64,000 nt of DNA from Candidatus Binataceae bacterium (lineage in GTDB: Bacteria; Desulfobacterota; Binatia; Binatales; Binataceae). The position numbers and the translations under genes are program-made. The notes under the pieces are model-generated. The model was not told the DNA's origin. It saw only the letters and a list, made by a program, of their open reading frames with translations, and made no database searches. This document shows, in pieces, positions 7,313 through 54,148 of this stretch; position 1 is the first letter of the stretch, and the number at the start of each line of letters is the position of its first letter. Where the stretch lies: assembly GCA_035531615.1 (NCBI GenBank), contig DATKSQ010000093.1, positions 45,700 through 109,699 of the forward strand, in the 5' to 3' direction.

Positions 7313-7445
7313 GACAGCTCTCGCGCGGCAGCCGCAGCCTGCCCTGAGCGATGTCGAAGGGCGCGGGTAATGACAGAAAAAGACTGCGATGGAGCAGAGC
7401 CTTCGTCACTTCGTTATGCAGTAATTATAATAGGAGAAGCCAGCC

Positions 7446-20898: not shown

Positions 20899-21314
20899 GG
20901 CGGGGATGGCCGCAAGGGCACGCTGCCTCCCTAACCAGCGTTAGATTTTTTGCCAGATTTGTTCATGGCTGAACTGTTCAGCCTTATCGCCGTCTCTCGA
21001 CCCTGAGACAATGATCGCGTGGAAGCAACCCGCACACTATCCAGATCCGACTCGCCAGCCTGGTCAGTGGTGGCGGACGGCTCGTCCGCCTTCGCCTGGC
21101 TCCGATGCGATCCGCACCGGAGATCCGAACAGCGGCGGGCGACCGCGCCGCACGAAGTCCCCGCCTTCCACGAAATCTCCAGTGTTTCCAAGGGGTGTCG
21201 GTTCTGAACCGCCAGATTTTTTTTGGAACGAACCCATCGCAAAGGCCCGATATTCCAGAGTCAATGGCGCCCCGTTGCCCATCTCACTTCGCCTATTAAT
21301 CGATCGCGACAAAG

Positions 21315-21354
21315 TTCCCCTTCCCGTGCGGGAAGGGGTAGGGGTTAGGTCGAT
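21315..21354 (+). repeat. 40-bp hairpin repeat (ccccttcccgtgcgggaagggg core)
   Basis: Reverse complement of 31247-31286 with a single mismatch. The core is a 9-bp stem hairpin. Confidence 0.8.
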
Positions 21355-21382
21355 TCTTAGCGCGCAAGCCGAAGAGTCGCCT

Positions 21383-22678
21383 CTACTTGCTGGCGGATTG
21401 TGCGACCGCCGAGGTTCCCGCGCTCGCGCGGCTGGGCGTGAAGCGCACCGGCATGTGCTTGATTCCCGCCACGAAGTTCGAGCGCAGCCGCTCGACCGGT
21501 CCCGCGAGTTCGAGGTCGGGCATCCGCCGGTTGATCGCTTCGATCATCACCTTGAGCTCGATACGCGCCAGATTCGCGCCGAGGCAGAAATGCTCGCCGT
21601 GACCGAAGGCCAGGTGATCGTTGGGCGTGCGCGCGAGATCGAACGCGTCGGGATCGCGGAATATCGTTTCGTCGCGATTGGCCGACGCGTTCCAGATCAC
21701 GACGCGTTCTCCCTGCTTGATCTTGTGCCCGCGCAGCTCGCCGTCTTTCTTCGCGGTGCGCAGAATATGCGTCACCGGGCTCGTGAAGCGCAGGAACTCC
21801 TCGATCGCGGTGGGAGTGATGTCGGGATTACGCCGCAGCAACGCGCGCTGCGCGGGACTCTCGAGCAGCGCCTGCATCCCGGCAGAGGTCGCGTTGCGGG
21901 TCGTCTCCTGGCCGGCGACCAGGAGCAGCAGGCAATTGAACAGAATCTCCATGTCGCTCAGGCGCTCGCCCTCGGCCTCGCCGTGCACCAGCGCGGTCAG
22001 GAGATCTTCGCCGGGATTTTTGCGGCGCTGTTCGATCAGCTTCGAGAAGAACTCGAAGAATTGCGCCTGCGCGTACTGCCCGGTCTCCATCGCGCTGCGG
22101 CCCTGCTGATATTCCGGATCGTCGAAGCCGATCGACATGTTGGCGAGCGTGAACATCAGCTCGTAATGCTCGCGATCGACGCCCATCATTTCGCAGATCA
22201 CGGCGGTCGGAAGTTTCGCGGCGACGTCCACCACGAAATCGCATTCGCCGCGCTCGATGATCGTGTCGATAATATCTTCGGCCCGCGCCCGGATCTGCGC
22301 CGCGTAGGGCGCCAGCGCCTTCGGGGTGAAGCGCCGGTTGACGATCTGGCGCAGCTTGCCGTGGCGCGGCGGGTCGGTCGTCAGCAGCATCATTCCAAAC
22401 GCCGACTGGCTGCCGGCCTCGGCGTTGAAGTTGAACTGGAGCGACATCCCGAATTCCGAGCTGTAAGTGTACGGGTCGTGATAGACCTTGAGCGCGTCTT
22501 CGTAACGCGTGACGCACCAGAAGCCCTGGCCGGGAGCGCGCTCATGCCAATAGACGGGAGCCTCGTTGCGCATGATCCGGAAGGCTTCGAGATGCTCTCC
22601 GCGCACGAACATCTCGGGGTTCATAAGATCGATGTCGTCAAGTTTCATGGCGTGGTCTCCGGTCCCGGACTCGCGCAT
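21383..22678 (-). CDS. cytochrome P450
   Basis: Heme-thiolate motif FGHGEHFCLGANLAR, EFLR (ExxR), and the I-helix LLLVAGQETT. Confidence 0.9.
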   Translation of the reverse strand: MRESGTGDHAMKLDDIDLMNPEMFVRGEHLEAFRIMRNEAPVYWHERAPGQGFWCVTRYEDALKVYHDPYTYSSEFGMSLQFNFNAEAGSQSAFGMMLLTTDPPRHGKLRQIVNRRFTPKALAPYAAQIRARAEDIIDTIIERGECDFVVDVAAKLPTAVICEMMGVDREHYELMFTLANMSIGFDDPEYQQGRSAMETGQYAQAQFFEFFSKLIEQRRKNPGEDLLTALVHGEAEGERLSDMEILFNCLLLLVAGQETTRNATSAGMQALLESPAQRALLRRNPDITPTAIEEFLRFTSPVTHILRTAKKDGELRGHKIKQGERVVIWNASANRDETIFRDPDAFDLARTPNDHLAFGHGEHFCLGANLARIELKVMIEAINRRMPDLELAGPVERLRSNFVAGIKHMPVRFTPSRASAGTSAVAQSASK

Positions 22679-22756
22679 TGGGACGATCGGAATTGTAGGA
22701 AACTATCCTCGCTGATACTAACGGCCACGGCGCCGGAATTCTCAGCCCAATGCGCC

Positions 22757-23968
22757 TCAGCCCTTGGGCAGCTTGAGCACGCGCTCGCCGATGATGTTGT
22801 GCTGGATCTCGTTCGAGCCCGCCGCGATCGTGAACCCGCGCGCGGCCAGGGTGCGATGCGCCCACTTGCCGTGCTCGACCGCGCCGAGGCCGCCTTCGAG
22901 CGCGCCGTACGCGCCCAGCATTTCATCGGCGAACATCGTGACCCGCAGGTTCAGATCGGACGAGAACAGCTTTCCGAACGAGCTTTCGGCGCCCGGGACC
23001 TTTCCGCGCAGTTGCGCGCTCAGCGAGCGATAGCGGATGAGCCGCAGGCATCGTGCTTCGCTCGTGAACTGCGCCAGGCGCTGGCGAATGTACGAATGCT
23101 CGCGCGCGGGCACGCCCTCGAAATCGATCTGCATAGCCAGCTCGACCAGCTCATTGATCGTCCGTTCGACGGGATGGCGCGTGCCGCCGGAAACTCGCTC
23201 GTACATCAAGGTGGCGATCGAAACCTGCCAACCCTGATTTATCTCGCCGACCAGATTTTCCTTGGGAACTTTGACGCTGTCGTAAAATACTTCGTTGAAG
23301 CCCGACTCGCCGGTTATCTGGACCAGCGGACGAACCGTGAGCCCGGGCGAGTGCATATCGACCAGCAGGTACGAGATTCCCTTGTGCTTGGGCGCGGCCG
23401 GATCGGTGCGCACCAGCAGCACCTGCCAGTCTGCGCGATGCGCGAGGCTGGTCCATACCTTCTGCCCGGTGACGACGAAGTTGTCGCCCTCGAGCACGGC
23501 GCGGGTCTGCAATCCCGCCAGGTCCGAGCCCGCGTTGGGCTCCGAGTATCCCTGGCACCAGATTTCCTCGCCGGTGAGCATCTTGGGCAGATAGCGCTTG
23601 CGCTGCGCCTCGGTGCCCATCTGCGCGATGGTTGGACCGATCCGATCGAGTGCGAGCTGATTGCATCCATAGAGCGGCAGACCCAGGCGCAGCGCTTCGT
23701 CCTGATAGATCGACTGCTCGATGATGCCGGCGCCCGTGCCGCCCCACTCGATCGGCCAGTGCAGGGCGGCGTATCCGGCCTGGTAGAGGCGGCGATGATA
23801 CTCGCGCAACTTGTTCCATTGCGCGTCGTCGCGTACGTCGAGGAGGCTCGCGGTCGCGCTGCCAGCGGCATCGCCGCCGCGGCCGTAAATTTCCGTCGAG
23901 GCATTTTCGAGCCACGCGCGCACTTTGGCGCGAAAGGCTTCTTGCTCTGGCGTATAGCTGAAGTCCAT
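22757..23968 (-). CDS. acyl-CoA dehydrogenase
   Basis: MDFSYTPEQEAFRAKVRAWL N-terminus, YSEPNAGSDLAG motif, and a C-terminal IAAGSNEIQHNIIGERVL. The track start at 24040 is an extension. Confidence 0.85.
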   Translation of the reverse strand: MDFSYTPEQEAFRAKVRAWLENASTEIYGRGGDAAGSATASLLDVRDDAQWNKLREYHRRLYQAGYAALHWPIEWGGTGAGIIEQSIYQDEALRLGLPLYGCNQLALDRIGPTIAQMGTEAQRKRYLPKMLTGEEIWCQGYSEPNAGSDLAGLQTRAVLEGDNFVVTGQKVWTSLAHRADWQVLLVRTDPAAPKHKGISYLLVDMHSPGLTVRPLVQITGESGFNEVFYDSVKVPKENLVGEINQGWQVSIATLMYERVSGGTRHPVERTINELVELAMQIDFEGVPAREHSYIRQRLAQFTSEARCLRLIRYRSLSAQLRGKVPGAESSFGKLFSSDLNLRVTMFADEMLGAYGALEGGLGAVEHGKWAHRTLAARGFTIAAGSNEIQHNIIGERVLKLPKG

Positions 23969-24041
23969 CGCTTTCCTCGCGACGCGAGTATAGCGCCGGT
24001 CTGGCTCAATTTTGAAACCGCGCGGCTCGTGAAAAAACAAT

Positions 24042-24096
24042 CCACAGATTACACAGATTTCACGGATTTAATCTCTTCAATCTGTGCAATCTGTGG
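24042..24096. repeat. inverted-repeat hairpin element (ccacagattacacagatt / aatctgtgcaatctgtgg)
   Basis: 18-bp arms with one mismatch. Sits between the SDR stop and the ACAD start. Confidence 0.7.
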
Positions 24097-24114
24097 ACGC
24101 ATTCATCTTTGTTT

Positions 24115-24960
24115 CTACTTCTCGAACGACGGACCGCTGAAGCCTTGCGCGGGCAGCGCGGTCTGCTGGCGCGGAGCGCCTGACGACTCGAAGAACTGGC
24201 TCCCTATCGTCAGCCCTCCATCGACGACCATCGCCTGCCCCGTTATCCACTGCGAGTCGTCGCTGGCCAGGAACAGCGCCATGTTCGCGATATCCTCGGG
24301 ATGGCCGGCGCGCTGGATCGGCTGCCCATGCGCCATCCATTGCTCCATCGCATCTTTGACGCCGGGCTGGTTGCGATGCAGGATCGGCGTGTTGATTCCG
24401 CCGGGGCAGATGCAGTTTACGCGAATCTTGTCCTTGGCGAATTCCAGCGCCGCCGAGCGGGTAAGATTGACCACCCCGGCTTTCGCCGCGCAGTACGCGT
24501 GCAATCCCGCGAAGCCGCGGATTCCGGCCACCGACGCGGTCGAGATGATCGATCCGCCGCCCGCTTTGCGCATTTCGGGCACCGCGTGCTTCATGCCGAG
24601 AAACACCGAGCGCATCAGCACGGAGAAGCTCTTGTCCCAGTCCTCGACGCTGATTTGTTCGAGCGGGCCGATCGCGCCGCCGATTCCGGCGTTGTTGTAG
24701 ATGATATCCAGGCGGCCAAATTCTTTGACCGCGCGCGCGACCAGAGCTTTGATCTCCGCTTCGCCCGATACATCGGCTTTTTGAAAAATCGCGCGGCCGC
24801 CGTTTTCCTTGCAGTCGCGCACCGCGGCCTCGCCGCCTTCGGCATTCAGATCCGCGATCACCACGGCTGCCCCTTCGCCCGCGAAACGGATCGCGGTGCC
24901 GCGTCCGATGCCGCTAGCCGCGCCGGTGATGATCGCAACTTTTCCATCGAGTCTGCCCAT
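24115..24960 (-). CDS. SDR family short-chain dehydrogenase/reductase
   Basis: TGAASGIGRG cofactor motif, NNAG, and the catalytic YCAAKAG (YxxxK). Confidence 0.85.
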   Translation of the reverse strand: MGRLDGKVAIITGAASGIGRGTAIRFAGEGAAVVIADLNAEGGEAAVRDCKENGGRAIFQKADVSGEAEIKALVARAVKEFGRLDIIYNNAGIGGAIGPLEQISVEDWDKSFSVLMRSVFLGMKHAVPEMRKAGGGSIISTASVAGIRGFAGLHAYCAAKAGVVNLTRSAALEFAKDKIRVNCICPGGINTPILHRNQPGVKDAMEQWMAHGQPIQRAGHPEDIANMALFLASDDSQWITGQAMVVDGGLTIGSQFFESSGAPRQQTALPAQGFSGPSFEK

Positions 24961-25120: not shown

Positions 25121-25283
25121 CAGATTGGAGCTGAATCGCGATGCTATAATTCCGACCGCGATGCCGAACGATGATGACGCGGGGCGGGGTGGCCCGACCG
25201 GGCCGCGCTGCGCCTCACTGGTTGAATATCCGCCCGAAGCCGCGCCGCTGGCTGCCCTCGAACTGACGGCGCAGGATGCGCCG

Positions 25284-27284
25284 GTGGCGGGCGACGACCC
25301 GGTCGAGCGCAAGCTTGCGATCACGCCGCCCGCGCCTGGCGTCTATCTGCTTAAAGACCGCGCGGGCAAAGTCCTCTACGTCGGCAAGGCCAAGTCGCTG
25401 CGCGCCCGCGTCCGATCGTACTTCCGCCCGGCGCGCGAGGGCGAAGCTGGCGACGGCCGCTATCAGGTGCGTTTCCTGATGCGCAAAGTTCGCGACTTCG
25501 ACACGATCGTCACCGCCAGCGAGAAAGAGGCGCTGATCCTCGAAAACAATCTGATCAAGCAGTACAAGCCCCGCTACAACATCCGTCTCAAGGACGACAA
25601 ATCCTACCTGAGCGCCAAGGTCACCAAACATGCGTGGCCGCGAATCACGGTGACGCGGCGGATCGTTAAAGATGGCGGGCGCTATTTTGGCCCGTTCGGA
25701 TCGGCCGACGGATTGCGCGAAACGATCGACGTGATCCGAAAGCTGTTCCCGCTGCGCACCTGCTCCGACGGCGTGTTCCGCAACCGCACGCGTCCGTGCC
25801 TCGAATATCAGATCAAGCGATGCCTTGGGCCGTGCTGCCTCGAAGTCGATCGCGCCGAGTACGAGCGCCATCTGCACGCCGCCGAGTTGCTGCTCGAAGG
25901 GCGCAACCTCGAGCTCTTGCGCGAGATGCGCGAGCAGATGAAGGCGCACGCCTCGCGCCTGGAATTCGAGGACGCGGCGCGGCTACGCGACCGGGTCAAG
26001 GCGATCGAAAAGACCGTCGAGCGCCAGACCGTGCTGCATCACATGGGGATCGATCAGGATGTCTTCGGGCTTTACCGCGAGGGCGGCGCGATCGAGGCGA
26101 TCGTGCTGATCGTGCGCGGCGGGAAGCTGACCAGCACGCAAGGCTGGAGTTTCCAGGACCTCGAGTTCTCCGACCACGAAGTGCTGTCCGATCTGCTGAC
26201 CCAGTATTACCAGGGCGCGCGCGCGATCCCGGACGAAATCGTGACGCCGGTGGAACTCGAAGACGCCGCGGTGCGCGCCGAACTGCTGACCGAGCGGCGC
26301 GGCAAGAAGGCCGAGTTCCTCGTACCGCAACGCGGCGATAAACTGCGCCTGCTCGAAATGGCGCTCGAGAACGCGCGCCAGAGCTTCGCCGCGCGCCGCG
26401 ACAAGGAGCAGACGCGCGAGAAGATGCTCGAAGACCTGCGCACGCGGCTGCATCTCAAGAATTCTCCGAAGCGAATCGAATGCTACGACATCTCCAATCT
26501 GCAAGGCTCGATGGTGGTCGGATCGCAGGTCACCTTCGACGAGGGCGAGCCCCTCAAGGCGCAGTACCGGCGCTACCGGATCCGCGGTTTCGAGGGGCAG
26601 GACGATTTCGCGAGCCTCTACGAGGTTCTCGGCCGGCGCGTCGTGCGTGCCAGGCAGGAGAATCAATTTCCCGATCTATGGGTGATAGATGGCGGCAAGG
26701 GCCAGCTCAACGTCGCGCTGCAAGTGCTGCGCGAAAACCAGTTGCTTGAACAGATCGATTGCATCTCGCTAGCCAAGCAGCACGTCCTTCAGCCTGCACT
26801 GAGCGCCCGTTACGCCAAGGAAGTCAGCAAATCCCAAGAGCGCGTGTTCCTGCCGGGCCGCAAAGATCCGATCGTGCTGCCGAAGAACTCGACCGCGCTG
26901 TTCTTGCTGGTCCGCGTCCGCGACGAGGCGCATCGCTTCGCGATTACCTACAACCGCGAGCTGCGGCGCCGCGCGCGGATGCGCTCGGTGCTCGACGATA
27001 TAGAAGGGATCGGCCCGGTGCGGCGCCGCGCGATGCTGCGCCATTTCGGCAGCTTGAAGCGCATTCAGGAGGCATCGATCGAGGAGATCGCGCAGGTCAA
27101 AGGAATCAACCTAGAACTCGCCGCCGAAATCCGCCGCCACCTGGACGCGATGGCCTCGATAATCGACCGCGCAATGCAAGAAGAAGCAACCGACGCCGCC
27201 GCCGAAAACACCCGCGACAATGCGATCGCCGCGCAACCATCCTCGCCGCAACCGCCCCGAGCCGAAGACGAGATTGTACGCTAA
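25284..27284 (+). CDS. uvrC: excinuclease ABC subunit C
   Basis: GIY-YIG PGVYLLKDRAGKVLYVGKAKSLRARVRSYF, UvrBC-interaction and RNase-H-like regions, C-terminal (HhH)2. GTG 25284 with AGGA 7 nt upstream gives a normal N-terminal length. ATG 25161 is an alternative start. Confidence 0.9.
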   Translation: MAGDDPVERKLAITPPAPGVYLLKDRAGKVLYVGKAKSLRARVRSYFRPAREGEAGDGRYQVRFLMRKVRDFDTIVTASEKEALILENNLIKQYKPRYNIRLKDDKSYLSAKVTKHAWPRITVTRRIVKDGGRYFGPFGSADGLRETIDVIRKLFPLRTCSDGVFRNRTRPCLEYQIKRCLGPCCLEVDRAEYERHLHAAELLLEGRNLELLREMREQMKAHASRLEFEDAARLRDRVKAIEKTVERQTVLHHMGIDQDVFGLYREGGAIEAIVLIVRGGKLTSTQGWSFQDLEFSDHEVLSDLLTQYYQGARAIPDEIVTPVELEDAAVRAELLTERRGKKAEFLVPQRGDKLRLLEMALENARQSFAARRDKEQTREKMLEDLRTRLHLKNSPKRIECYDISNLQGSMVVGSQVTFDEGEPLKAQYRRYRIRGFEGQDDFASLYEVLGRRVVRARQENQFPDLWVIDGGKGQLNVALQVLRENQLLEQIDCISLAKQHVLQPALSARYAKEVSKSQERVFLPGRKDPIVLPKNSTALFLLVRVRDEAHRFAITYNRELRRRARMRSVLDDIEGIGPVRRRAMLRHFGSLKRIQEASIEEIAQVKGINLELAAEIRRHLDAMASIIDRAMQEEATDAAAENTRDNAIAAQPSSPQPPRAEDEIVR

Positions 27285-27327
27285 GGACATCCCGGCTCCT
27301 TCGATCGCGCCCTCGCCGCCGCGCGCG
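27282..27327 (+). repeat. direct repeat Ra, left copy (starts with the uvrC TAA stop)
   Basis: taaggacatcccggctccttcgatcgcgccctcgccgccgcgcgcg aligns with 31188-31231. Confidence 0.7.
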
Positions 27328-27515
27328 TATTTCTGATCCTCTCCCGACGCTCGGGACAGGTCGCGCCCCTTCGACACCGCTCAGGGCAGGCTCCGCGCGG
27401 GTGAGGGACCGACAGCAAGGAATTCCGGATCGCTTCCAGCACTCCGCCAAGCTTGCTCAGCGCGTCACGAATGCGAACGCGCTCGGGTGTGGAGCGAGCG
27501 GGCGTGAGCAGTCCG

Positions 27516-27654
27516 TCGCGGCGCGGCCATCCGGAATCTCACTCTGGCGGTCCCTCACCCTCGCGTCACGGCGATTGCTGAAAAGAGCAATCGCCGCGCC
27601 ACGCTCCCTCTCCCAAATTCTTTTGGGAGAGGGACAATCAAAAATCGCGCGCGC
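27516..27654 (+). repeat. direct repeat Rb, left copy (about 137 bp, two internal hairpins)
   Basis: Matches 31323-31458 with roughly half a dozen differences by eye. Contains the hairpins cggcgattgct-gaaaag-agcaatcgccg and tccctctccca...tgggagaggga. Confidence 0.85.
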
Positions 27655-27737
27655 GCAGCGGTATTCAGTTCACCCCCGGGCTCCGCTAGAGTAACGCAAC
27701 CGAAGAGGGGCGGCGCATCGCGCGCAACTGATCGCAC

Positions 27738-30700
27738 TTGGATCCACTCGAAACCTATCTCGCGAAACTGCGCGATATTCATTCGACCGGCGCTGGCACG
27801 CCCGAGACCTCCTACTATCCGGCGCTGGAAGCGTTGTTCAGCGAAGTCGGCAGGATGCTCAAGCCGCGCGTGACTTGTGTGATGGGGCTCAAGCAGCAGG
27901 GTGCCGGGCTGCCTGACGGGGGGCTGTTCACGGCGGATCAGTTGCGCAACGCCGGCGGCGATCCGCCGATTTCGACGATCCCCGCGCGCGGCGCGATCGA
28001 GGTGAAGCCCGCCGCCGCGAGCCTCGGCGTCACCGTGCAATCCGATCAGGTGCGCCGTTATCTGCGCCGCTACCAGCAGGTGCTGGTCACCAACCTGCGC
28101 GAGTTCGTGCTGGTAGCGCGAGAGGAAGACGGCGAACCGCGGGAACTCGAGGGCTACCGGCTCGGCGGCGGCGGCGCGGAAGAATTCTGGGACAACGCTG
28201 TAGCTCATCCGCGCGCGGCGGCGAATCTCGATGACGGCGGCTTCGCGGAATTTATCCGCCGCGTGATACTTCATCCCGCTCCGCTCGCCGCGCCGAAAGA
28301 CGTCGCGTGGTTCCTCGCCTCGTATGCGCGCGAGGCGCTGCGCCGCATCGGCAAGCGCGACCTGCCCGCGCTGACCGCGATGCGGACGGCGCTCGAACAG
28401 GCGCTCGGCATCAAGTTCGAGAGCGAGAAGGGCGCGCACTTCTTCCGTTCGACCCTGGTGCAGACCCTCTTCTACGGCGTATTCGCCGCGTGGGTGCTAT
28501 GGCGCCGTGAGCGCGGCGCATCCGCCAAACGCGAACGCTTCAACTGGCGCCTGTCGGAGTATTCGCTGCGCGTGCCGATCGTAGCCGCGCTGTTCCATCA
28601 GGTTTCTTCTGTGAGCCAACTCGAGGAACTGCGCATCGTCGAGCCGCTCGATTGGGCCGGCAATGTGCTGAATCGCGTCGAGCCGGGACCGTTCTTCGAG
28701 GCCTTCGAGCAGCATCACGCGGTCCAGTATTTCTACGAGCCGTTCCTGCAAGCCTACGATCCCGAACTTCGCAAGCAACTTGGCGTCTGGTACACGCCGC
28801 CCGAGATTGTGACCTACATGGTCGAGCGCGTCGATTCGGTGCTGCGCTCGGAGCTCGGACTGGCGGACGGACTCGCCGACGACAGCGTGATCGTGCTCGA
28901 CCCGTGCTGCGGGACAGGCAGTTATATCGTCGAGGTGCTGCGCCGGATTCACGACACCATGAAAGAGAAGGGCGCCGACGCGCTAACCGCCAATCGGGTC
29001 AAAGCGGCGGCGACAAATCGCGTGTTCGGTTTCGAGATCATGCCCGCGCCGTTCGTGATCGCGCATTTGCAGATCGGGCTTGCGCTGCGGAATTTGGGCG
29101 CTCCGCTGTCCGACAAGACTAAGGAACGCGCCGGAGTTTATCTGACCAACGCGCTCACCGGATGGGAGCCGCCGGAAGGACCCAAGCAGCACATCCTCGC
29201 GATGCCGGAGCTCGAGGTCGAGCGCGACGCCGCCGACAAGGTCAAGCACGCACCCAAGATCCTAGTGATCCTGGGAAATCCCCCTTACAACGCATTTGAC
29301 GGGATTAGTCCTGACGAAGAAAAAGGGCTTCTCGAGCCTTATAAAGCAGGGCTGGTCGCGAAGTGGGGAATCAAGAAGTTCAACCTCGACGATCTCTACG
29401 TGCGATTCTTCCGGATGGCAGAGCGGAGAATCGCGGAGATGACCGGGCGCGGCGTCGTCGCGTTCATATCAAATTTTTCGTATCTCTCCGACCCTTCCTT
29501 CGTCGTCATGCGGCAGCGCTTCCTGTCAGAATTCGATCGAATCTGGATCGACTGCCTGAACGGCGACAGCCGCGAAACCGGAAAACTCACACCCGAGGGG
29601 CGGCCCGATCCGAGCGTCTTTTCGACCGAGCAGAACCGCGAAGGAATTCGGGTCGGAACCGCGATCGGCGTTCTGGTTCGGCGCGGCAAAAGCCAGAGTC
29701 CTGCCGCGATGGGGTTCCGCCAATTCTGGGGCACCTCGAAACGCGAAGACCTCTTGACGGGTCTGACCGCGGATAAGTTTGACACCCAGTATGCGAGCGT
29801 CGAGCCGTCAATCAAGAATCGCTACTCATTCCGGCCGTCTGAGGTCAGCGCCGCATATTCGTCTTGGCCGCGTGTCATCGATCTGTGCGCGATTCCGCCG
29901 AGCAACGGACTAATGGAAAAGCGCGGCGGCGCGCTCATCGACATCGACCCGGCGGCGCTCGAAAAGCGCATGCGCGCCTATTTGGATCGCAAGCTCGACT
30001 GGGAGGAATACAAAGCGCTTGGTTACGGCCTCACGGATGATCAGGCCGCCTTTGAACCGAAAAAGGCGAGAGAGCGAGCACGCTCACAGGAGGAGTTCGG
30101 CCGCTCGCGGATTGTCCGGTACGCGGTTCGCGCCTTCGATACGAGATGGTGCTACTACACAGACGTCAATCCCGTCTGGAATCGAGCGCGCCCAGCTTTG
30201 TGGGCGCAATTCTTCGAAGGTAACTCTTTCCTGACGACTCGCCCCGCAGGCGTAGCCCAACCGGAGGGCGTTCCGTTCTTCTTTACTCGCGCGCTGGGCG
30301 ACAATGACTTTCTCCGTGGTCATGCCTACTACTTCCCGCTCAAGATCAAAGGTCGAATCATGCGCGCTAATTTCGGAAAGGCTGCGCTGGAATATCTTGA
30401 GCAACTCAATGTCAATTCCGGCGACTCAACGGCCAGCGCGAGCGACCTGCTCTGGATGCACGCGCTGGCAGTCGGCTACTCGCCAGCTTATCTAACCGAG
30501 AACGCCGACGGCGTCCGCCAGGATTGGCCGCGGATTCCGCTGCCCAACTCACGTGAACTCCTTGCCGCCTCCGCCGAGCTTGGACGTAAGATTGCCGCGC
30601 TGCTTGATACCGAAAATCAGGTCGATACCGTTACCGCCGGGAAGCTCCGCGCCGACCTTGCCTCGATCGGGGCCATCGCGAGCTCTGGCGGCGGCAACCT

Positions 30701-31172
30701 CGATCCCGCCAAGGGTCATCTCGCCCTGACCGCCGGATGGGGTCATGCGGGCAAGGCCGGCGTCGTGATGCCGGCGCGGGGGCGAATTCTCAAGCGCGGT
30801 TACACGCAGGCCGAACGCGACGCGATTGCCGCTGGCGGCGCGACGATCGGACTCTCGGGCCACGACGCAATGGACCTGCTCGGGGCGGATACCTGTGACG
30901 TGTACCTCAACGACATCGCGTACTGGCGCAATATCCCGGCGCGTGTGTGGGAATACACGATCGGCGGCTATCAGGTGATCAAGAAATGGCTCAGCTACCG
31001 CGAGCGCGAATTGCTCCATCGCGATTTGACGCCGGAAGAAGTCGCGGAAGTGACCGCGATGGCGCGGCGGATCGCGGCGATTGTGCTGATGACCCCCGCG
31101 CTCGACGCGAACTATCAGGCCATCAAGGCGAACACCTACGCTTGGCCCGCGGCCGAGACACCTCGGGCTTAG
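27738..31172 (+). CDS. single-chain restriction-modification-like enzyme: PD-ExK-like N-terminus, gamma-class N6-adenine DNA methyltransferase, type-ISP-like C-terminal domain
   Basis: 1144 aa, TTG start. MTase motifs in the order X (GVWYTPPEIV, aa 349-358), I (LDPCCGTGS, aa 387-395), IV (NPPY, aa 514-517, nt 29277-29288). The N-terminus has LPD60GG...AIE88VK90P. The C-terminus has WEYTIGGYQVIKKWLSYRE. Confidence 0.8.
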   Translation: MDPLETYLAKLRDIHSTGAGTPETSYYPALEALFSEVGRMLKPRVTCVMGLKQQGAGLPDGGLFTADQLRNAGGDPPISTIPARGAIEVKPAAASLGVTVQSDQVRRYLRRYQQVLVTNLREFVLVAREEDGEPRELEGYRLGGGGAEEFWDNAVAHPRAAANLDDGGFAEFIRRVILHPAPLAAPKDVAWFLASYAREALRRIGKRDLPALTAMRTALEQALGIKFESEKGAHFFRSTLVQTLFYGVFAAWVLWRRERGASAKRERFNWRLSEYSLRVPIVAALFHQVSSVSQLEELRIVEPLDWAGNVLNRVEPGPFFEAFEQHHAVQYFYEPFLQAYDPELRKQLGVWYTPPEIVTYMVERVDSVLRSELGLADGLADDSVIVLDPCCGTGSYIVEVLRRIHDTMKEKGADALTANRVKAAATNRVFGFEIMPAPFVIAHLQIGLALRNLGAPLSDKTKERAGVYLTNALTGWEPPEGPKQHILAMPELEVERDAADKVKHAPKILVILGNPPYNAFDGISPDEEKGLLEPYKAGLVAKWGIKKFNLDDLYVRFFRMAERRIAEMTGRGVVAFISNFSYLSDPSFVVMRQRFLSEFDRIWIDCLNGDSRETGKLTPEGRPDPSVFSTEQNREGIRVGTAIGVLVRRGKSQSPAAMGFRQFWGTSKREDLLTGLTADKFDTQYASVEPSIKNRYSFRPSEVSAAYSSWPRVIDLCAIPPSNGLMEKRGGALIDIDPAALEKRMRAYLDRKLDWEEYKALGYGLTDDQAAFEPKKARERARSQEEFGRSRIVRYAVRAFDTRWCYYTDVNPVWNRARPALWAQFFEGNSFLTTRPAGVAQPEGVPFFFTRALGDNDFLRGHAYYFPLKIKGRIMRANFGKAALEYLEQLNVNSGDSTASASDLLWMHALAVGYSPAYLTENADGVRQDWPRIPLPNSRELLAASAELGRKIAALLDTENQVDTVTAGKLRADLASIGAIASSGGGNLDPAKGHLALTAGWGHAGKAGVVMPARGRILKRGYTQAERDAIAAGGATIGLSGHDAMDLLGADTCDVYLNDIAYWRNIPARVWEYTIGGYQVIKKWLSYRERELLHRDLTPEEVAEVTAMARRIAAIVLMTPALDANYQAIKANTYAWPAAETPRA

Positions 31173-31187
31173 GACGAGGGCCTATCG

Positions 31188-31231
31188 TAAGGACATCCCG
31201 GCTATTCCGATCGCGCTATCGCCGCCGCGCG
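31188..31231 (+). repeat. direct repeat Ra, right copy
   Basis: taaggacatcccggctattccgatcgcgctatcgccgccgcgcgg, 16 nt after the RM-like gene stop. Confidence 0.7.
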
Positions 31232-31246
31232 GTTAAGAATCCTGAG

Positions 31247-31286
31247 ATCGATCTAACCCCTACCCCTTCCCGCACGGGAAGGGGAA
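31247..31286 (-). repeat. 40-bp hairpin repeat, second copy
   Basis: Its reverse complement equals 21315-21354 except for one base. Confidence 0.8.
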
Positions 31287-31322
31287 TTACCAGCGTGGCG
31301 TGAGCAATCGCTCGGAACCATC

Positions 31323-31458
31323 TCGCGGCGCGGCCATCCAGAATCTCACTCTGGCGGTCCCTCACCCTCGCGTCACGGCGATTGCTGAAAAGAGCAATCG
31401 CCGCGCCGCGTTCCCTCTCCCAGTCTTTTGGGAGAGGGACAATCAAAAATCGCGCGCG
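31323..31458 (+). repeat. direct repeat Rb, right copy
   Basis: See 27516-27654. Confidence 0.85.
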
Positions 31459-31639
31459 GCGGCGAGTGCTCCGATCCGCGCCGTTGCTGCCATCGCGGAT
31501 GGGGTTGCGTGGCGCTGGAATCCTTGCGTGGTTCCTATATGATTAGCGGAGTCGAATAATTCGCCGGCGTCCGATTAGCGCGGCTGCTGGGGCGCCGGGC
31601 GCGGAATCACCGCATCGAAAGCAAAACTTTTAAGGACAA

Positions 31640-32899
31640 GTGACAAACGACATGGCTTACAAGTACATCAAGGTTCCCGCCGACGGGCAGAAGATCACCC
31701 TCGGTAAAAATCAGGCGCTGAACGTTCCCGACCGCCCGATTATCCCGTTTATCGAAGGCGACGGCACCGGTCCCGACATCTGGCGCGCGTCGCAATATGT
31801 CTTCGACAAGGCGGTCGAAAAAGTTTATGGCGGCAAGCGCAAGATCGCATGGATGGAAGTCTATGCCGGCGAGAAGCCGTTCAAGCAGCAGAACTCGTGG
31901 CTGCCCGACGAGACGGTCGAAGCCTTCAAGGAATTTCTGGTCGGTATCAAAGGCCCCCTGACCACTCCGATCGGCGGCGGAATCCGCTCGCTCAACGTCG
32001 CGCTGCGCCAGATGCTCGACCTCTACGTATGCCTGCGGCCGGTGCGCTACTTCGCAGGCGTGCCGAGTCCGGTCAAGCATCCCGAGAAACTCGACGTCGT
32101 GATCTTCCGCGAGAACACCGAGGACATCTACGCGGGAATCGAATGGCCCGCCGAATCGCCCGAAGCGAAAAAGCTGATCAAGTTCCTGCGCGAGGACATG
32201 GGCGTCAAGAATATCCGCTTCCCCGAGACTTCCGGCATCGGCATCAAGCCGGTCTCGCGCGAAGGCTCCGAGCGCCTGATTCGCGCCGCGCTCGAATATG
32301 CGATCCGGCGCAAGCGCAAGAGCGTGACCTTCGTCCACAAGGGCAACATCATGAAGTTCACCGAAGGCGCGTTCCGCGACTGGGGCTATGAACTGGTGCG
32401 GCGCGAATACAAGGGCAGGGCGATAGGTTGGGACGACTGCGGCGGCAATGCGCCGGCCGGGCAAATCCTGGTCAAGGATGCGATCGCGGATATCACCCTT
32501 CAGCAGGTGCTCACGCGGCCCGAGGAATTCGATGTCGTCGCGACCATGAATCTAAACGGCGACTTTCTCTCCGACGCGCTGGCGGCGCAGGTCGGCGGAA
32601 TCGGAATCGCGCCAGGCGCGAATATCAACTACCTGACCGGCCACGCGATCTTCGAGGCGACGCATGGCACCGCGCCCAAGTACGCCAATCAGGACAAGGT
32701 CAATCCGGGCTCGGTGATTTTGTCGGGCGTGATGATGTTCGAGCATCTGGGATGGCAGGAGGCGGCCGACGGGATCGTGCGCGGACTTCAAAAGGCGATC
32801 GCGAACAAAACCGTCACCTACGATTTCGAGCGCCAGATGACCGGCGCCAAGCTGCTCAAGTGCTCGGAGTTCGGCAAGGCGATTGTCGATAACATCTGA
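31640..32899 (+). CDS. icd: NADP-dependent isocitrate dehydrogenase
   Basis: [22 protein letters not shown], and [26 protein letters not shown] motifs. 419 aa. GTG start 5 nt after AAGGA. Confidence 0.9.
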
Positions 32900-40313: not shown

Positions 40314-40502
40314 AGGTTGTGAGTTCTTCGGGCCTGGTTCAATTTTGTGTCATCTTGAGCGGGGGCCGCTGCGGCCGGAGTCGAAAGACCCCTAGTCTTT
40401 CCGGGGTTCGGAGCTTGCCCTGAGCGCTGCCGAAGGGACTCGCGCAGCGCTCGCTCAGGATGATACGAAACGCTCACGATCAATAAAATCACCGACTCTG
40501 AC
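40311..40502 (+). mobile_element. MITE-like repeat, copy C (192 bp, degenerate terminal repeats)
   Basis: Aligns along its length with 7119-7312 (gtgtcatcttgagcgggggccgctgcggccggagtcgaaagacccc...gagcttgccctgagcgctgccgaagggactcgcgcagcgctcgctcaggatga). Confidence 0.75.
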
Positions 40503-54020: not shown

Positions 54021-54148
54021 GTCATTCCGAGCCATAGGCGAGGAATCCCGAAGCGTCCATGCTCCGCGCCAACGCCACACGCAGTGGCTCTTCGCCCGGG
54101 ATTTCTCCCGGAGCCCGCCCTGAGCAGCGTCGAAGGGGTCGAAATGAC
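54021..54148. repeat. REP/MITE-like element with gtcattYcga terminal inverted repeats
   Basis: Starts gtcattccgagcc and ends ggtcgaaatgac. Shares its modules with 6940-7123. Confidence 0.6.

What the first reader, a model, noticed from the sequence alone, without database searches (positions are those of the whole stretch)
27282..31458. Solitary single-chain RM-like enzyme bracketed by direct repeats in the uvrC-icd spacer
**Seen in the sequence**
- A 1144-aa ORF (27738-31172, TTG start) carries N6-adenine MTase motifs in gamma-class order: X GVWYTPPEIV, I LDPCCGTGS, IV NPPY at nt 29277-29288.
- Its N-terminal 120 aa contain a candidate PD-(D/E)xK arrangement (LPD60GG ... AIE88VK90P, then QVLVTNLREF).
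- Its C-terminus carries WEYTIGGYQVIKKWLSYRE. I recognise this as the kind of C-terminal module found in type ISP (LlaGI/LlaBIII-like) and related type IIG enzymes.
- There is no helicase/ATPase domain, and no separate R, S or second M gene nearby.
- The gene sits between two core genes. It is bracketed by a repeat of about 137 bp (27516-27654 / 31323-31458, about half a dozen differences by eye).
- A second repeat of about 45 bp (27282-27327 / 31188-31231) has a left copy that begins with the uvrC stop codon.

**Inference**
A one-gene cassette, either a type IIG-like defence enzyme or an orphan methyltransferase, was inserted into or duplicated within a repeat-bearing spacer. The repeats may be the recombination substrate.
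Basis: partly seen in the sequence, partly recalled or inferred. Interest (0 to 1): 0.7.

Follow-up and report, generated by a model that had tools for sequence, protein, structure and literature searches.

The report
Mobile one-gene restriction enzyme behind uvrC
A single-protein restriction-modification enzyme of a common, already annotated kind sits between two housekeeping genes of an uncultured soil bacterium, flanked by two copies of the local spacer, which is a known way for such genes to sit in genomes.

Summary
Every item of the observation checks out: the ORF, the methyltransferase motifs, the conserved D60/E88/K90, the C-terminal type-ISP module, both repeats, and the lack of partner genes.

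**The gene.** It is a DrdV-like type IIL/IIG enzyme with four parts: an N-terminal PD-ExK nuclease, a helical connector, a gamma-class N6-adenine methyltransferase, and an ISP-type recognition domain. It has no ATPase motor. The family has thousands of members, and NCBI labels them "type ISP", which is a misnomer.

**The organism and mobility.** The window comes from a Candidatus Binataceae genome.
- One relative has an empty uvrC-icd site.
- Close copies of the same 3.5-kb promoter-plus-ORF cassette sit at three or more other loci.
- Composition is native.

**The repeats.**
- They are two copies of the local spacer distal to uvrC.
- The duplication includes roughly the last 11 codons of uvrC, and the enzyme's ORF terminates inside that relic.
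- Relatives at the same site carry this spacer on one side only, or only a 46-nt repeat. The A/B repeats are therefore not needed for the cassette to occupy this site.
- The arrangement resembles the published "insertion with long target duplication" of restriction-modification genes.

**Verdict.** This is a well-resolved but ordinary case, and interest is low to moderate.

The parts
25161..27284 (+). uvrC, the upstream core gene. Roughly its last 11 codons (about 27252-27284) form the start of the duplicated segment.
   Evidence: Pfam and NCBIfam identify UvrC.
27255..27654 (+). Left copy of the duplicated spacer. It comprises the uvrC tail (27255-27281), repeat A (27282-27327, starting with the TAA stop), segment x (27328-27515) and repeat B (27516-27654). 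Segment x holds a dispersed hairpin at 27362-27395 and an inverted partial B copy at 27394-27433. Repeat B is a double hairpin.
   Evidence: Repeats. Hairpins fold with z = -5.6.
27655..27737 (+). Upstream block that belongs to the cassette. ATTCAGTTC (27663-27671) and GCTAGAGTAAC (27685-27695) are conserved in every context. TTCAGT-17 nt-TAGAGT is a possible promoter, which is inference only.
   Evidence: The block is 75-79% identical to L001, L002, L083 and L086, and 90% identical to L085, directly upstream of their genes. The promoter scan itself did not flag it.
27738..28172 (+). N-terminal PD-ExK endonuclease domain (aa 1-145), with E23, D60, E88 and K90.
   Evidence: The AF2 model has pLDDT 88 and pTM 0.84. 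The best Foldseek hits are the DrdV endonuclease domain chains 7lvv_C/D and 7lo5, with TM 0.59-0.67 and E 7e-6 to 2e-4.
28173..28712 (+). Helical connector (aa about 146-325).
   Evidence: The full-length model is all-helical here.
28713..29900 (+). Gamma-class N6-adenine methyltransferase domain. Motif X is at aa 349-358, motif I at 387-395, and motif IV (NPPY) at nt 29277-29288.
   Evidence: Pfam N6_Mtase. DrdV, LlaGI and LlaBIII match by sequence. Motif residues are invariant.
29901..31034 (+). Target-recognition domain of the type-ISP/DrdV kind (aa 722-1099). Segments around aa 500-900 are swapped among close relatives.
   Evidence: Pfam Type_ISP_C, E 1.4e-34. Mosaic identity profile.
31155..31190 (+). 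Relic of the uvrC 3' tail. In frame it reads ETPRA*DEGLS*. The enzyme's stop codon (31170-31172) lies inside the relic, and the relic's own TAA (31188-31190) starts repeat A'.
   Evidence: The uvrC tails for comparison are ETPTADRGLS* (L083), ETPTAERGVS* (L171) and QPPRAEDEIVR* (window). The relic matches the uvrC tail at 15 of 27 nt; only 0.18% of window 27-mers match as well.
31188..31458 (+). Right copy of the duplicated spacer. It comprises A' (31188-31231), y (31232-31322, with a dispersed hairpin at 31247-31286) and B' (31323-31458).
31506..32899 (+). Conserved icd upstream region and icd (31652-32899). Homology to the empty-site relative L013 resumes at 31506.

Best explanation
**What it is**
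- The ORF encodes a single-chain type IIL/IIG restriction-modification enzyme of the DrdV kind.
- By analogy with DrdV (inferred), one recognition domain directs both adenine methylation of one strand of an asymmetric site and cleavage at a fixed distance. Cleavage would be licensed only when several enzyme-bound unmodified sites come together.

**How it moves**
- The gene and its 80-nt upstream block form a 3.5-kb unit that moves among Binataceae genomes without any mobility gene.
- At this locus the unit sits just past uvrC, between two copies of the local spacer (uvrC tail, stop codon, A, x/y, B).
- This is a long duplication of the target. It leaves uvrC intact and supplies the last codons and the stop codon of the enzyme's ORF.

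**Shown versus inferred**
- Shown: the domain architecture, conservation of the catalytic residues, the empty site, the other loci, the duplicated uvrC tail, and the variant junctions in relatives.
- Inferred: enzymatic activity, the order of events, and the mechanism of duplication. Candidate mechanisms are illegitimate insertion with target duplication, or Campbell-type re-integration of an excised circle carrying one spacer copy.
For: **The enzyme**
- Family matches: Pfam Type_ISP_C and N6_Mtase, and PADLOC type IIG models at E 5.5e-84 and 8.2e-78.
- The best PDB match by sequence, and over the full length by fold, is DrdV.
- The N-terminal model matches the DrdV endonuclease domain.
- E23, D60, E88 and K90 are invariant or nearly so. 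They parallel DrdV E25, D64, E79 and K81.
- Recognition-domain segments are swapped between close relatives.

**Mobility**
- L013 is an empty site.
- The cassette (window 27653/27660 to about 31150) is 81-91% identical at loci next to mutS, next to a PEMT-like gene, and in another context.

**The duplication**
- A and B are colinear in both flanks.
- The uvrC tail relic is present.
- A occurs nowhere else in about 2 Mb of related loci apart from the copies linked to this cassette in L085 and L171/L172.
- L171/L172 carry a single A-x-y-B copy.
- L083 has a 46-nt repeat that begins in the uvrC tail.
- The arrangement is reproduced in two other assemblies.
- The pattern is described in the literature for restriction-modification genes (PMC2853133).
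Against: - No RM-free allele with a single A-x-y-B copy was found. The only empty site (L013) has a different 84-nt spacer and aligns only to the uvrC tail.
- Similarity among copies is mosaic. The left A is 98% identical to the A on the right of the gene in L171, but only 89% identical to the window's own right A'. A simple single-event model does not predict this.
- B-like double hairpins and small hairpins are dispersed elements in these genomes. Part of the repeat content could therefore have arrived independently.
- The native tail of the enzyme at other loci (WPAAERA*, WPATARE*) resembles the start of the supposed relic, which blurs the exact junction.
- No activity, methylation motif or restriction phenotype is known. 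Two relatives at another locus are disrupted.
Confidence: 0.62

Rival explanations
1. The flanking repeats are not a duplication linked to the gene. They are independent insertions of dispersed REP- or MITE-like hairpin elements that colonise intergenic DNA on both sides of any gene.
For: - B-like double hairpins occur in L013 (3366-3429) and L029 (3096-3176) with compensatory stem changes.
- Small hairpins at 27362-27395 and 31247-31286 have other copies in the window and in relatives.
- A's 3' end and B' 3' end form a 24-nt inverted repeat (I6).
Against: - A is found only at this cassette.
- A and B keep the same order and orientation in both flanks.
- The right copy is contiguous with a relic of the uvrC tail.
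- The two B copies are 97% identical to each other but only 89-90% identical to the orthologous B in L171.
- B-like copies are rare: two in about 2 Mb of related DNA.
Confidence: 0.15
2. The cassette is ancestral at uvrC-icd in this clade. L013 lost it by recombination between the duplicated uvrC tails, and the long left flank in the window arose later by local duplication or gene conversion. On this reading the window shows a survivor rather than a recent insertion.
For: - Three or four lineages (window, L083/84, L171/172, perhaps L170) have the gene at the same site with different junction lengths.
- Composition is native: GC 62.6% versus 63.9%, and RSCU r = 0.95.
- L170's right flank carries the hairpin seen in L013's empty spacer.
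Against: - The same cassette also lies at three or more unrelated loci, so it does move.
- In the 160 uvrC-anchored loci from the two scans, uvrC-icd adjacency appears only in L013, apart from the window itself. The locus history is therefore short.
- The direction of change cannot be settled from three lineages that are about equally distant.
Confidence: 0.2
3. The protein is an orphan adenine methyltransferase, used for epigenetic regulation or for protection only, and its N-terminal domain no longer cuts DNA.
For: - There is no partner gene.
- The gene sits among core genes with native composition.
- Relatives tolerate disruption of the gene.
Against: - E23, D60, E88 and K90 are conserved across phyla at 40-60% overall identity.
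- The N-terminal domain forms 1354 clusters at 50% identity and is nearly always at the N-terminus.
- Recognition-domain swapping is typical of enzymes under selection for new specificities.
Confidence: 0.1

Closest known systems
DrdV (Deinococcus wulumuqiensis), a type IIL single-chain restriction-modification enzyme, PDB 7lo5/7lvv
   Same: - The domain order is the same: N-terminal PD-ExK nuclease, helical connector, gamma-class N6A methyltransferase, recognition domain.
- DrdV is the best match by sequence (E 5e-30), by full-length fold (E 8e-36) and for the isolated nuclease domain.
- Neither protein has an ATPase.
   Different: - Overall identity is only about 19-21%.
- Sequence similarity is limited to the methyltransferase region and a few C-terminal stretches.
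- This protein is 115 aa longer.
- The spacing of the nuclease motif differs: D60-x27-E88-x-K90 here, D64-x14-E79-x-K81 in DrdV.
- The specificity and cleavage distance of this protein are unknown.
[quoted passage not shown]
   Same: The methyltransferase and the C-terminal recognition module (Pfam Type_ISP_C) are homologous. NCBI names the protein after them.
   Different: Type ISP enzymes have an Mrr-type nuclease, an SF2 helicase-like ATPase and a coupler (PMC4666363 abstract). None of these is present here, so the translocation-collision mechanism cannot apply.
MmeI and BpuSI (type IIL/IIG)
   Same: The overall plan is the same, with one-strand modification inferred. Foldseek matches both: MmeI at E 1e-11 for the full length, and BpuSI weakly for the nuclease domain.
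   Different: The recognition-domain family is different. No MmeI Pfam domains are found in this protein.
Insertion of restriction-modification genes with long target duplication (Nobusato et al. 2000; Furuta, Abe and Kobayashi 2010, PMC2853133)
   Same: - An RM unit without mobility genes is flanked by direct repeats longer than 30 bp that are made of local sequence.
- The repeat overlaps the 3' end of the upstream gene, as in their Haemophilus cases.
- An empty site exists in a relative.
   Different: - In their cases the repeat aligns with a single copy in the empty genome. Here the empty genome (L013) shares only the uvrC tail.
- Relatives here show the duplication at three different lengths.
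- The duplicated tail also completes the inserted ORF.

Membership tests
Type IIL / IIG single-chain RM enzymes (DrdV, MmeI kind) | N-terminal PD-(D/E)xK endonuclease domain with conserved catalytic residues | tested here: met
   The model of aa 1-150 (pLDDT 88) matches the DrdV endonuclease domain with TM 0.59-0.67. E23, D60, E88 and K90 are conserved.
Type IIL / IIG single-chain RM enzymes (DrdV, MmeI kind) | Gamma-class N6-adenine methyltransferase fused in the same chain, followed by a recognition domain | tested here: met
   Motifs X, I and IV occur in order. Pfam N6_Mtase and Type_ISP_C both match. The full-length fold matches DrdV.
Type IIL / IIG single-chain RM enzymes (DrdV, MmeI kind) | No ATP-dependent motor and no separate R, M or S subunit | tested here: met
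   No ATPase domain was found. The neighbours are housekeeping genes. Distant homologues are also solitary.
Type IIL / IIG single-chain RM enzymes (DrdV, MmeI kind) | Methylates one strand of an asymmetric site and cuts at a fixed distance | not testable with these tools
   This needs methylome data or biochemistry.
Type ISP (LlaGI / LlaBIII) | SF2 helicase-like ATPase and coupler between the nuclease and the methyltransferase | tested here: not met
   There is no ATPase match in Pfam, NCBIfam or PADLOC. The alignments to LlaGI and LlaBIII cover only their methyltransferase and recognition parts.
BREX PglX / BrxX methyltransferase | Encoded within a brx gene cluster, with a full-length match to PglX models | tested here: not met
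   Only weak partial hits were found (20-29 bits; the NCBIfam BREX-2 PglX model cutoff is 400). There are no brx genes nearby.
[quoted passage not shown] | Insert under 20 kb, with R and M functions, and no mobility gene | tested here: met
   The window-specific segment is 4.2 kb and contains a single fused R-M gene.
[quoted passage not shown] | Flanking direct repeats longer than 30 bp that are unique local sequence | tested here: met
   The copies are about 400 and 300 nt long. A is unique to this cassette and the uvrC tail is included.
[quoted passage not shown] | The repeat aligns with a single copy at the empty site of a related genome | tested here: inconclusive
   L013 aligns only through the uvrC tail. 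A single A-x-y-B copy exists in L171/L172, but there it lies next to the gene.
REP / MITE-like dispersed elements (for repeat B) | Many copies at unrelated intergenic sites, with conserved hairpins | tested here: inconclusive
   Two B-like copies with compensatory stems were found in about 2 Mb of related loci. No whole genome of this lineage could be scanned.

The most novel reading that the evidence does not exclude
The cassette is an autonomous mobile unit whose own enzyme drives its insertion. On this reading it targets the 3' ends of genes (uvrC here; upstream of mutS in L085; immediately after stop codons at other loci). Insertion creates a long duplication that restores the host gene and supplies the enzyme's own stop codon. 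The repeats then allow excision as a circle and re-entry into naive genomes, which is the life cycle proposed but never demonstrated by the Kobayashi group.
Probability: 0.06. Interest if true: 0.7.

Novelty: new member of a known kind. Interest (0 to 1): 0.25.

Why it matters
**What it adds**
- It is a cleanly resolved natural series from an uncultured phylum (Binatota). The series comprises an empty site, a short duplication, a one-sided long spacer and a two-sided long spacer.
- The series illustrates how solitary restriction-modification genes sit in and move between chromosomal sites without mobility genes.
- It shows that a large protein family labelled "type ISP" in public annotation lacks the motor and is really DrdV-like type IIL.

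**What it does not add**
- It reveals no new kind of system.
- The enzyme could be a source of a new specificity if it were expressed.

Tried and rejected
- **Rfam.** A scan of 26500-32500 at E up to 1 gave only a chance hit. The repeats match no described RNA family.
- **tRNA integration.** There are no tRNA genes in the window, so integration at a tRNA is excluded.
- **Promoter and terminator scan.** It found no promoter and no excess of terminators.
- **N-terminal domain by sequence.** A profile search against PDB sequences and a Pfam search at E up to 10 found nothing. Only fold comparison identified the domain.
- **Metagenome scan with uvrC.** It returned no relative closer than 85% and no further uvrC-icd locus. 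The predicted RM-free allele with one A-x-y-B copy was not found.
- **mutS beside uvrC.** mutS is not next to uvrC in any other Binatia locus fetched. L085 is therefore treated as a different downstream context rather than the same spacer.
- **Terminal inverted repeats.** None were seen at the cassette ends, so a transposon-like form is rejected.
- **Assembly artefact.** Rejected, because two other assemblies reproduce the arrangement.
- **Foreign composition.** Rejected on GC content and codon usage.
- **Campbell-type integration from an L171-like donor.** A simple version predicts that the right A copy is donor-like. The identities show the opposite, so the exact path is left open.
Full report
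**1. The observation**

The ORF at 27738-31172 (+, TTG start, 1144 aa) exists. Its motifs GVWYTPPEIV, LDPCCGTGS and NPPY lie at aa 349-358, 387-395 and 514-517. NPPY is at nt 29277-29288. The motif residues are invariant in an alignment of 38 homologues.

- Pfam finds Type_ISP_C (aa 722-1099, E 1.4e-34) and N6_Mtase.
- The PADLOC type IIG models PDLC03610 and PDLC03631 match at E 5.5e-84 and 8.2e-78.
- No ATPase or helicase domain is found in Pfam, NCBIfam or PADLOC.

The upstream gene is uvrC (ends 27284). The downstream gene is NADP-isocitrate dehydrogenase (31652-32899). The wider neighbourhood is housekeeping: P450, acyl-CoA dehydrogenase and SDR on the minus strand, then DUF3313, a PQQ propeller protein, mdh and sdhA. 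There are no tRNA genes.

Both repeats are real.
- B: 27516-27654 versus 31323-31458, 132/136 identical.
- A: 27282-27327 versus 31188-31231, 39/44 identical.
- Neither has another copy in the window.

Two assemblies from other samples reproduce the whole 8-kb arrangement with one mismatch each.

**2. The protein**

The exact sequence is in public databases as [quoted passage not shown]. Many are 57-62% identical in other phyla.

By sequence, the best solved relative is DrdV (7lo5, E 5e-30). LlaGI and LlaBIII follow, and they align only over their methyltransferase and recognition parts.

Structure prediction gave two models.
- **Full length** (pLDDT 80.8). It aligns over its whole length with DrdV (E 8e-36), then with LlaGI/LlaBIII, MmeI and BrxX.
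- **N-terminal 150 aa.** Sequence methods were blind to this region. Modelled alone it gives pLDDT 88 and pTM 0.84. Its only significant fold matches are the DrdV endonuclease domain (TM 0.59-0.67, E 7e-6 to 2e-4). BpuSI and HsdR nuclease domains follow weakly.

D60 sits at the start of a strand and E88-x-K90 sits within the next strand. With E23, these residues are invariant or nearly so. DrdV's active site is E25, D64, E79, K81 and K94. The correspondence between the two sets is my inference, not a residue-level superposition.

The N-terminal domain alone defines 1354 clusters at 50% identity, almost always at the N-terminus.

Among close relatives, otherwise 90-100% identical proteins carry replaced segments at aa 600-700 (P0003) or aa 500-900 (P0009). 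This is the pattern expected for enzymes that change specificity.

I conclude that this is a DrdV-like type IIL/IIG enzyme. The "type ISP" label fails the defining ATPase test.

**3. It is a mobile one-gene unit**

A genome scan with uvrC returned 80 Binatia loci. Only L013 (uvrC 94%, icd 92% identical) has uvrC next to icd, and it is empty. The window's 27285-31505 (4221 nt) replaces 84 nt of L013.

The closest homologues (83-89% aa identity) lie in several contexts.

| Loci | Context |
|---|---|
| L001, L002, L086 | between a PEMT-like gene and a DUF433 gene |
| L085 | upstream of mutS |
| L083/84, L171/172 | the same uvrC-icd site |
| L169 | another context |
| L170 | possibly uvrC as well |

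- The segment shared by all of them runs from window 27653/27660 to about 31150. It consists of an 80-nt upstream block with conserved ATTCAGTTC and GCTAGAGTAAC, plus the ORF.
- No mobility gene or terminal inverted repeat accompanies it.
- Composition is native: GC 62.6% versus 63.9% for the window, and RSCU r = 0.95 against uvrC plus icd.
- Two of the copies at the PEMT locus are damaged. L002 has an in-frame stop, and L086 has a frameshift after the nuclease domain.
- More distant homologues are also solitary genes among housekeeping genes.

**4. What the repeats are**

The two flanks are colinear.
- Left: uvrC tail, TAA, A, x, B, cassette.
- Right: cassette, tail relic, TAA, A', y, B', icd side.

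Read in frame, the end of the enzyme plus the next 18 nt gives ETPRA*DEGLS*. The uvrC tails are ETPTADRGLS* (L083), ETPTAERGVS* (L171), QPPRAEDEIVR* (window) and EPPRAEDDIVW* (L013). At the nucleotide level the match is 15 of 27, reached by only 0.18% of window 27-mers. About the last 11 codons of uvrC are therefore part of the duplicated segment, and the enzyme's ORF ends inside the relic.

A occurs only with this cassette: in the window, L085 and L171/172.

B is a pair of strong hairpins (z = -5.6 and -5.9). It has rare relatives elsewhere, at L013 3366-3429 and L029 3096-3176, which keep both hairpins with different stems. Segments x and y each contain a small hairpin that is dispersed in these genomes.

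**5. Relatives at the same site show other states**

| Locus | Left of cassette | Right of cassette |
|---|---|---|
| L083/84 | uvrC TGA plus 24 nt | about 12 nt before the conserved icd upstream region |
| L171/172 | the same short junction | tail relic, A, x, y, B as a single copy |
| L085 | contig starts inside B | tail relic, A, x, a B core, then mutS |

- In L083/84 the cassette is flanked by a 46-nt imperfect direct repeat (33/46 identical) that begins in the uvrC tail.
- The uvrC-derived flank in L085 shows that its copy derives from the uvrC locus.
- The A/B repeats are therefore not needed for the cassette to occupy this site.
- The general theme still holds: the cassette sits between two copies of the uvrC-distal sequence.

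Identities are mosaic.

| Comparison | Identity |
|---|---|
| B, window left vs window right | 97% |
| B, either window copy vs L171 B | 89-90% |
| A, window left vs L171 right-hand A | 98% |
| A, window left vs window right A' | 89% |

This points to recombination or gene conversion among alleles rather than one simple event.

**6. Comparison with what is known**

Furuta, Abe and Kobayashi (PMC2853133) describe restriction-modification units that insert without mobility genes and with long, variable target duplications. In some of their cases the repeat overlaps the 3' end of the upstream gene. They also describe allelic diversity of recognition domains in type IIG genes. The present case meets their criteria except one. 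The repeat should align with a single copy in the empty genome, and L013 shares only the uvrC tail. A metagenome scan did not find a closer RM-free allele.

By analogy with DrdV, the mechanism of the enzyme itself would be:
- slow methylation of single sites;
- cleavage at a fixed distance only in assemblies of several site-bound molecules.

This is inference.

**7. Verdict**

- It is right that the flanks are a duplication of local sequence.
- It is not right that these particular repeats are required as the substrate.
- The finding is a new member of known kinds, both as an enzyme and as a mode of genomic residence. Interest is low to moderate.
- Left open: the direction and order of events at the locus, whether the enzyme is active, and its specificity.

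Noticed in passing
window 21011-24700 (+): A 1229-aa ORF with no family match runs antisense to three real minus-strand genes: P450 (21383-22678), acyl-CoA dehydrogenase (22757-24040) and SDR (24115-24960). It is probably a spurious ORF of the kind high-GC DNA produces.
   Followed up: partly
L013 2465-5290; window 24115-24960: The relative L013 has three tandem SDR paralogues where the window has one. A B-like double hairpin (L013 3366-3429) lies in the first gap between them.
   Followed up: partly
window 31247-31286, 21315-21354, 27362-27395, 7333-7365, 40409-40437, 54109-54138: Two families of small GC-rich hairpin repeats are dispersed through the window. One of them (CCCCTTCCCGCACGGGAAGGGG) also occurs in several other Binataceae loci (L008, L012, L026, L031).
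   Followed up: partly
window 27516-27654 and 31323-31458; L013 3345-3450; L029 3075-3185: Repeat B belongs to a rare family of double-hairpin intergenic elements. A conserved CCCTCAYCC..GTCACG lead precedes two stems, and the stem sequences differ between copies while pairing is kept. No Rfam family matches.
   Followed up: partly
L002 8001-11414; L086 4178-7595: Two of the three copies of the enzyme gene at the PEMT-like locus are disrupted. L002 has an in-frame stop that splits the gene into 891 and 236 aa. L086 has a frameshift right after the nuclease domain.
   Followed up: yes
proteins P0003 (aa 600-700) and P0009 (aa 500-900), relative to window 29538-30437: Close relatives are 90-100% identical except for replaced blocks in and before the recognition domain. 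This suggests swapped specificities.
   Followed up: partly
L066 17615-21037 (OZ241979.1): A complete Binatia chromosome carries a 45%-identical homologue of the enzyme about 6 kb downstream of its uvrC.
   Followed up: no
window 27309-27332 and 31446-31469: The 3' part of repeat A and the 3' end of repeat B' form a 24-nt, 88% complementary inverted repeat (CGCCGCCGCGCGCG core). It may mark the ends of the A..B unit, or it may be GC-rich chance.
   Followed up: no
L083, L084, L169-L172: All contigs that carry close relatives of the cassette at or near the uvrC site are only 3.6-4.4 kb long and end close to the cassette. This suggests assembly breaks caused by strain variation or repeats around it.
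   Followed up: no
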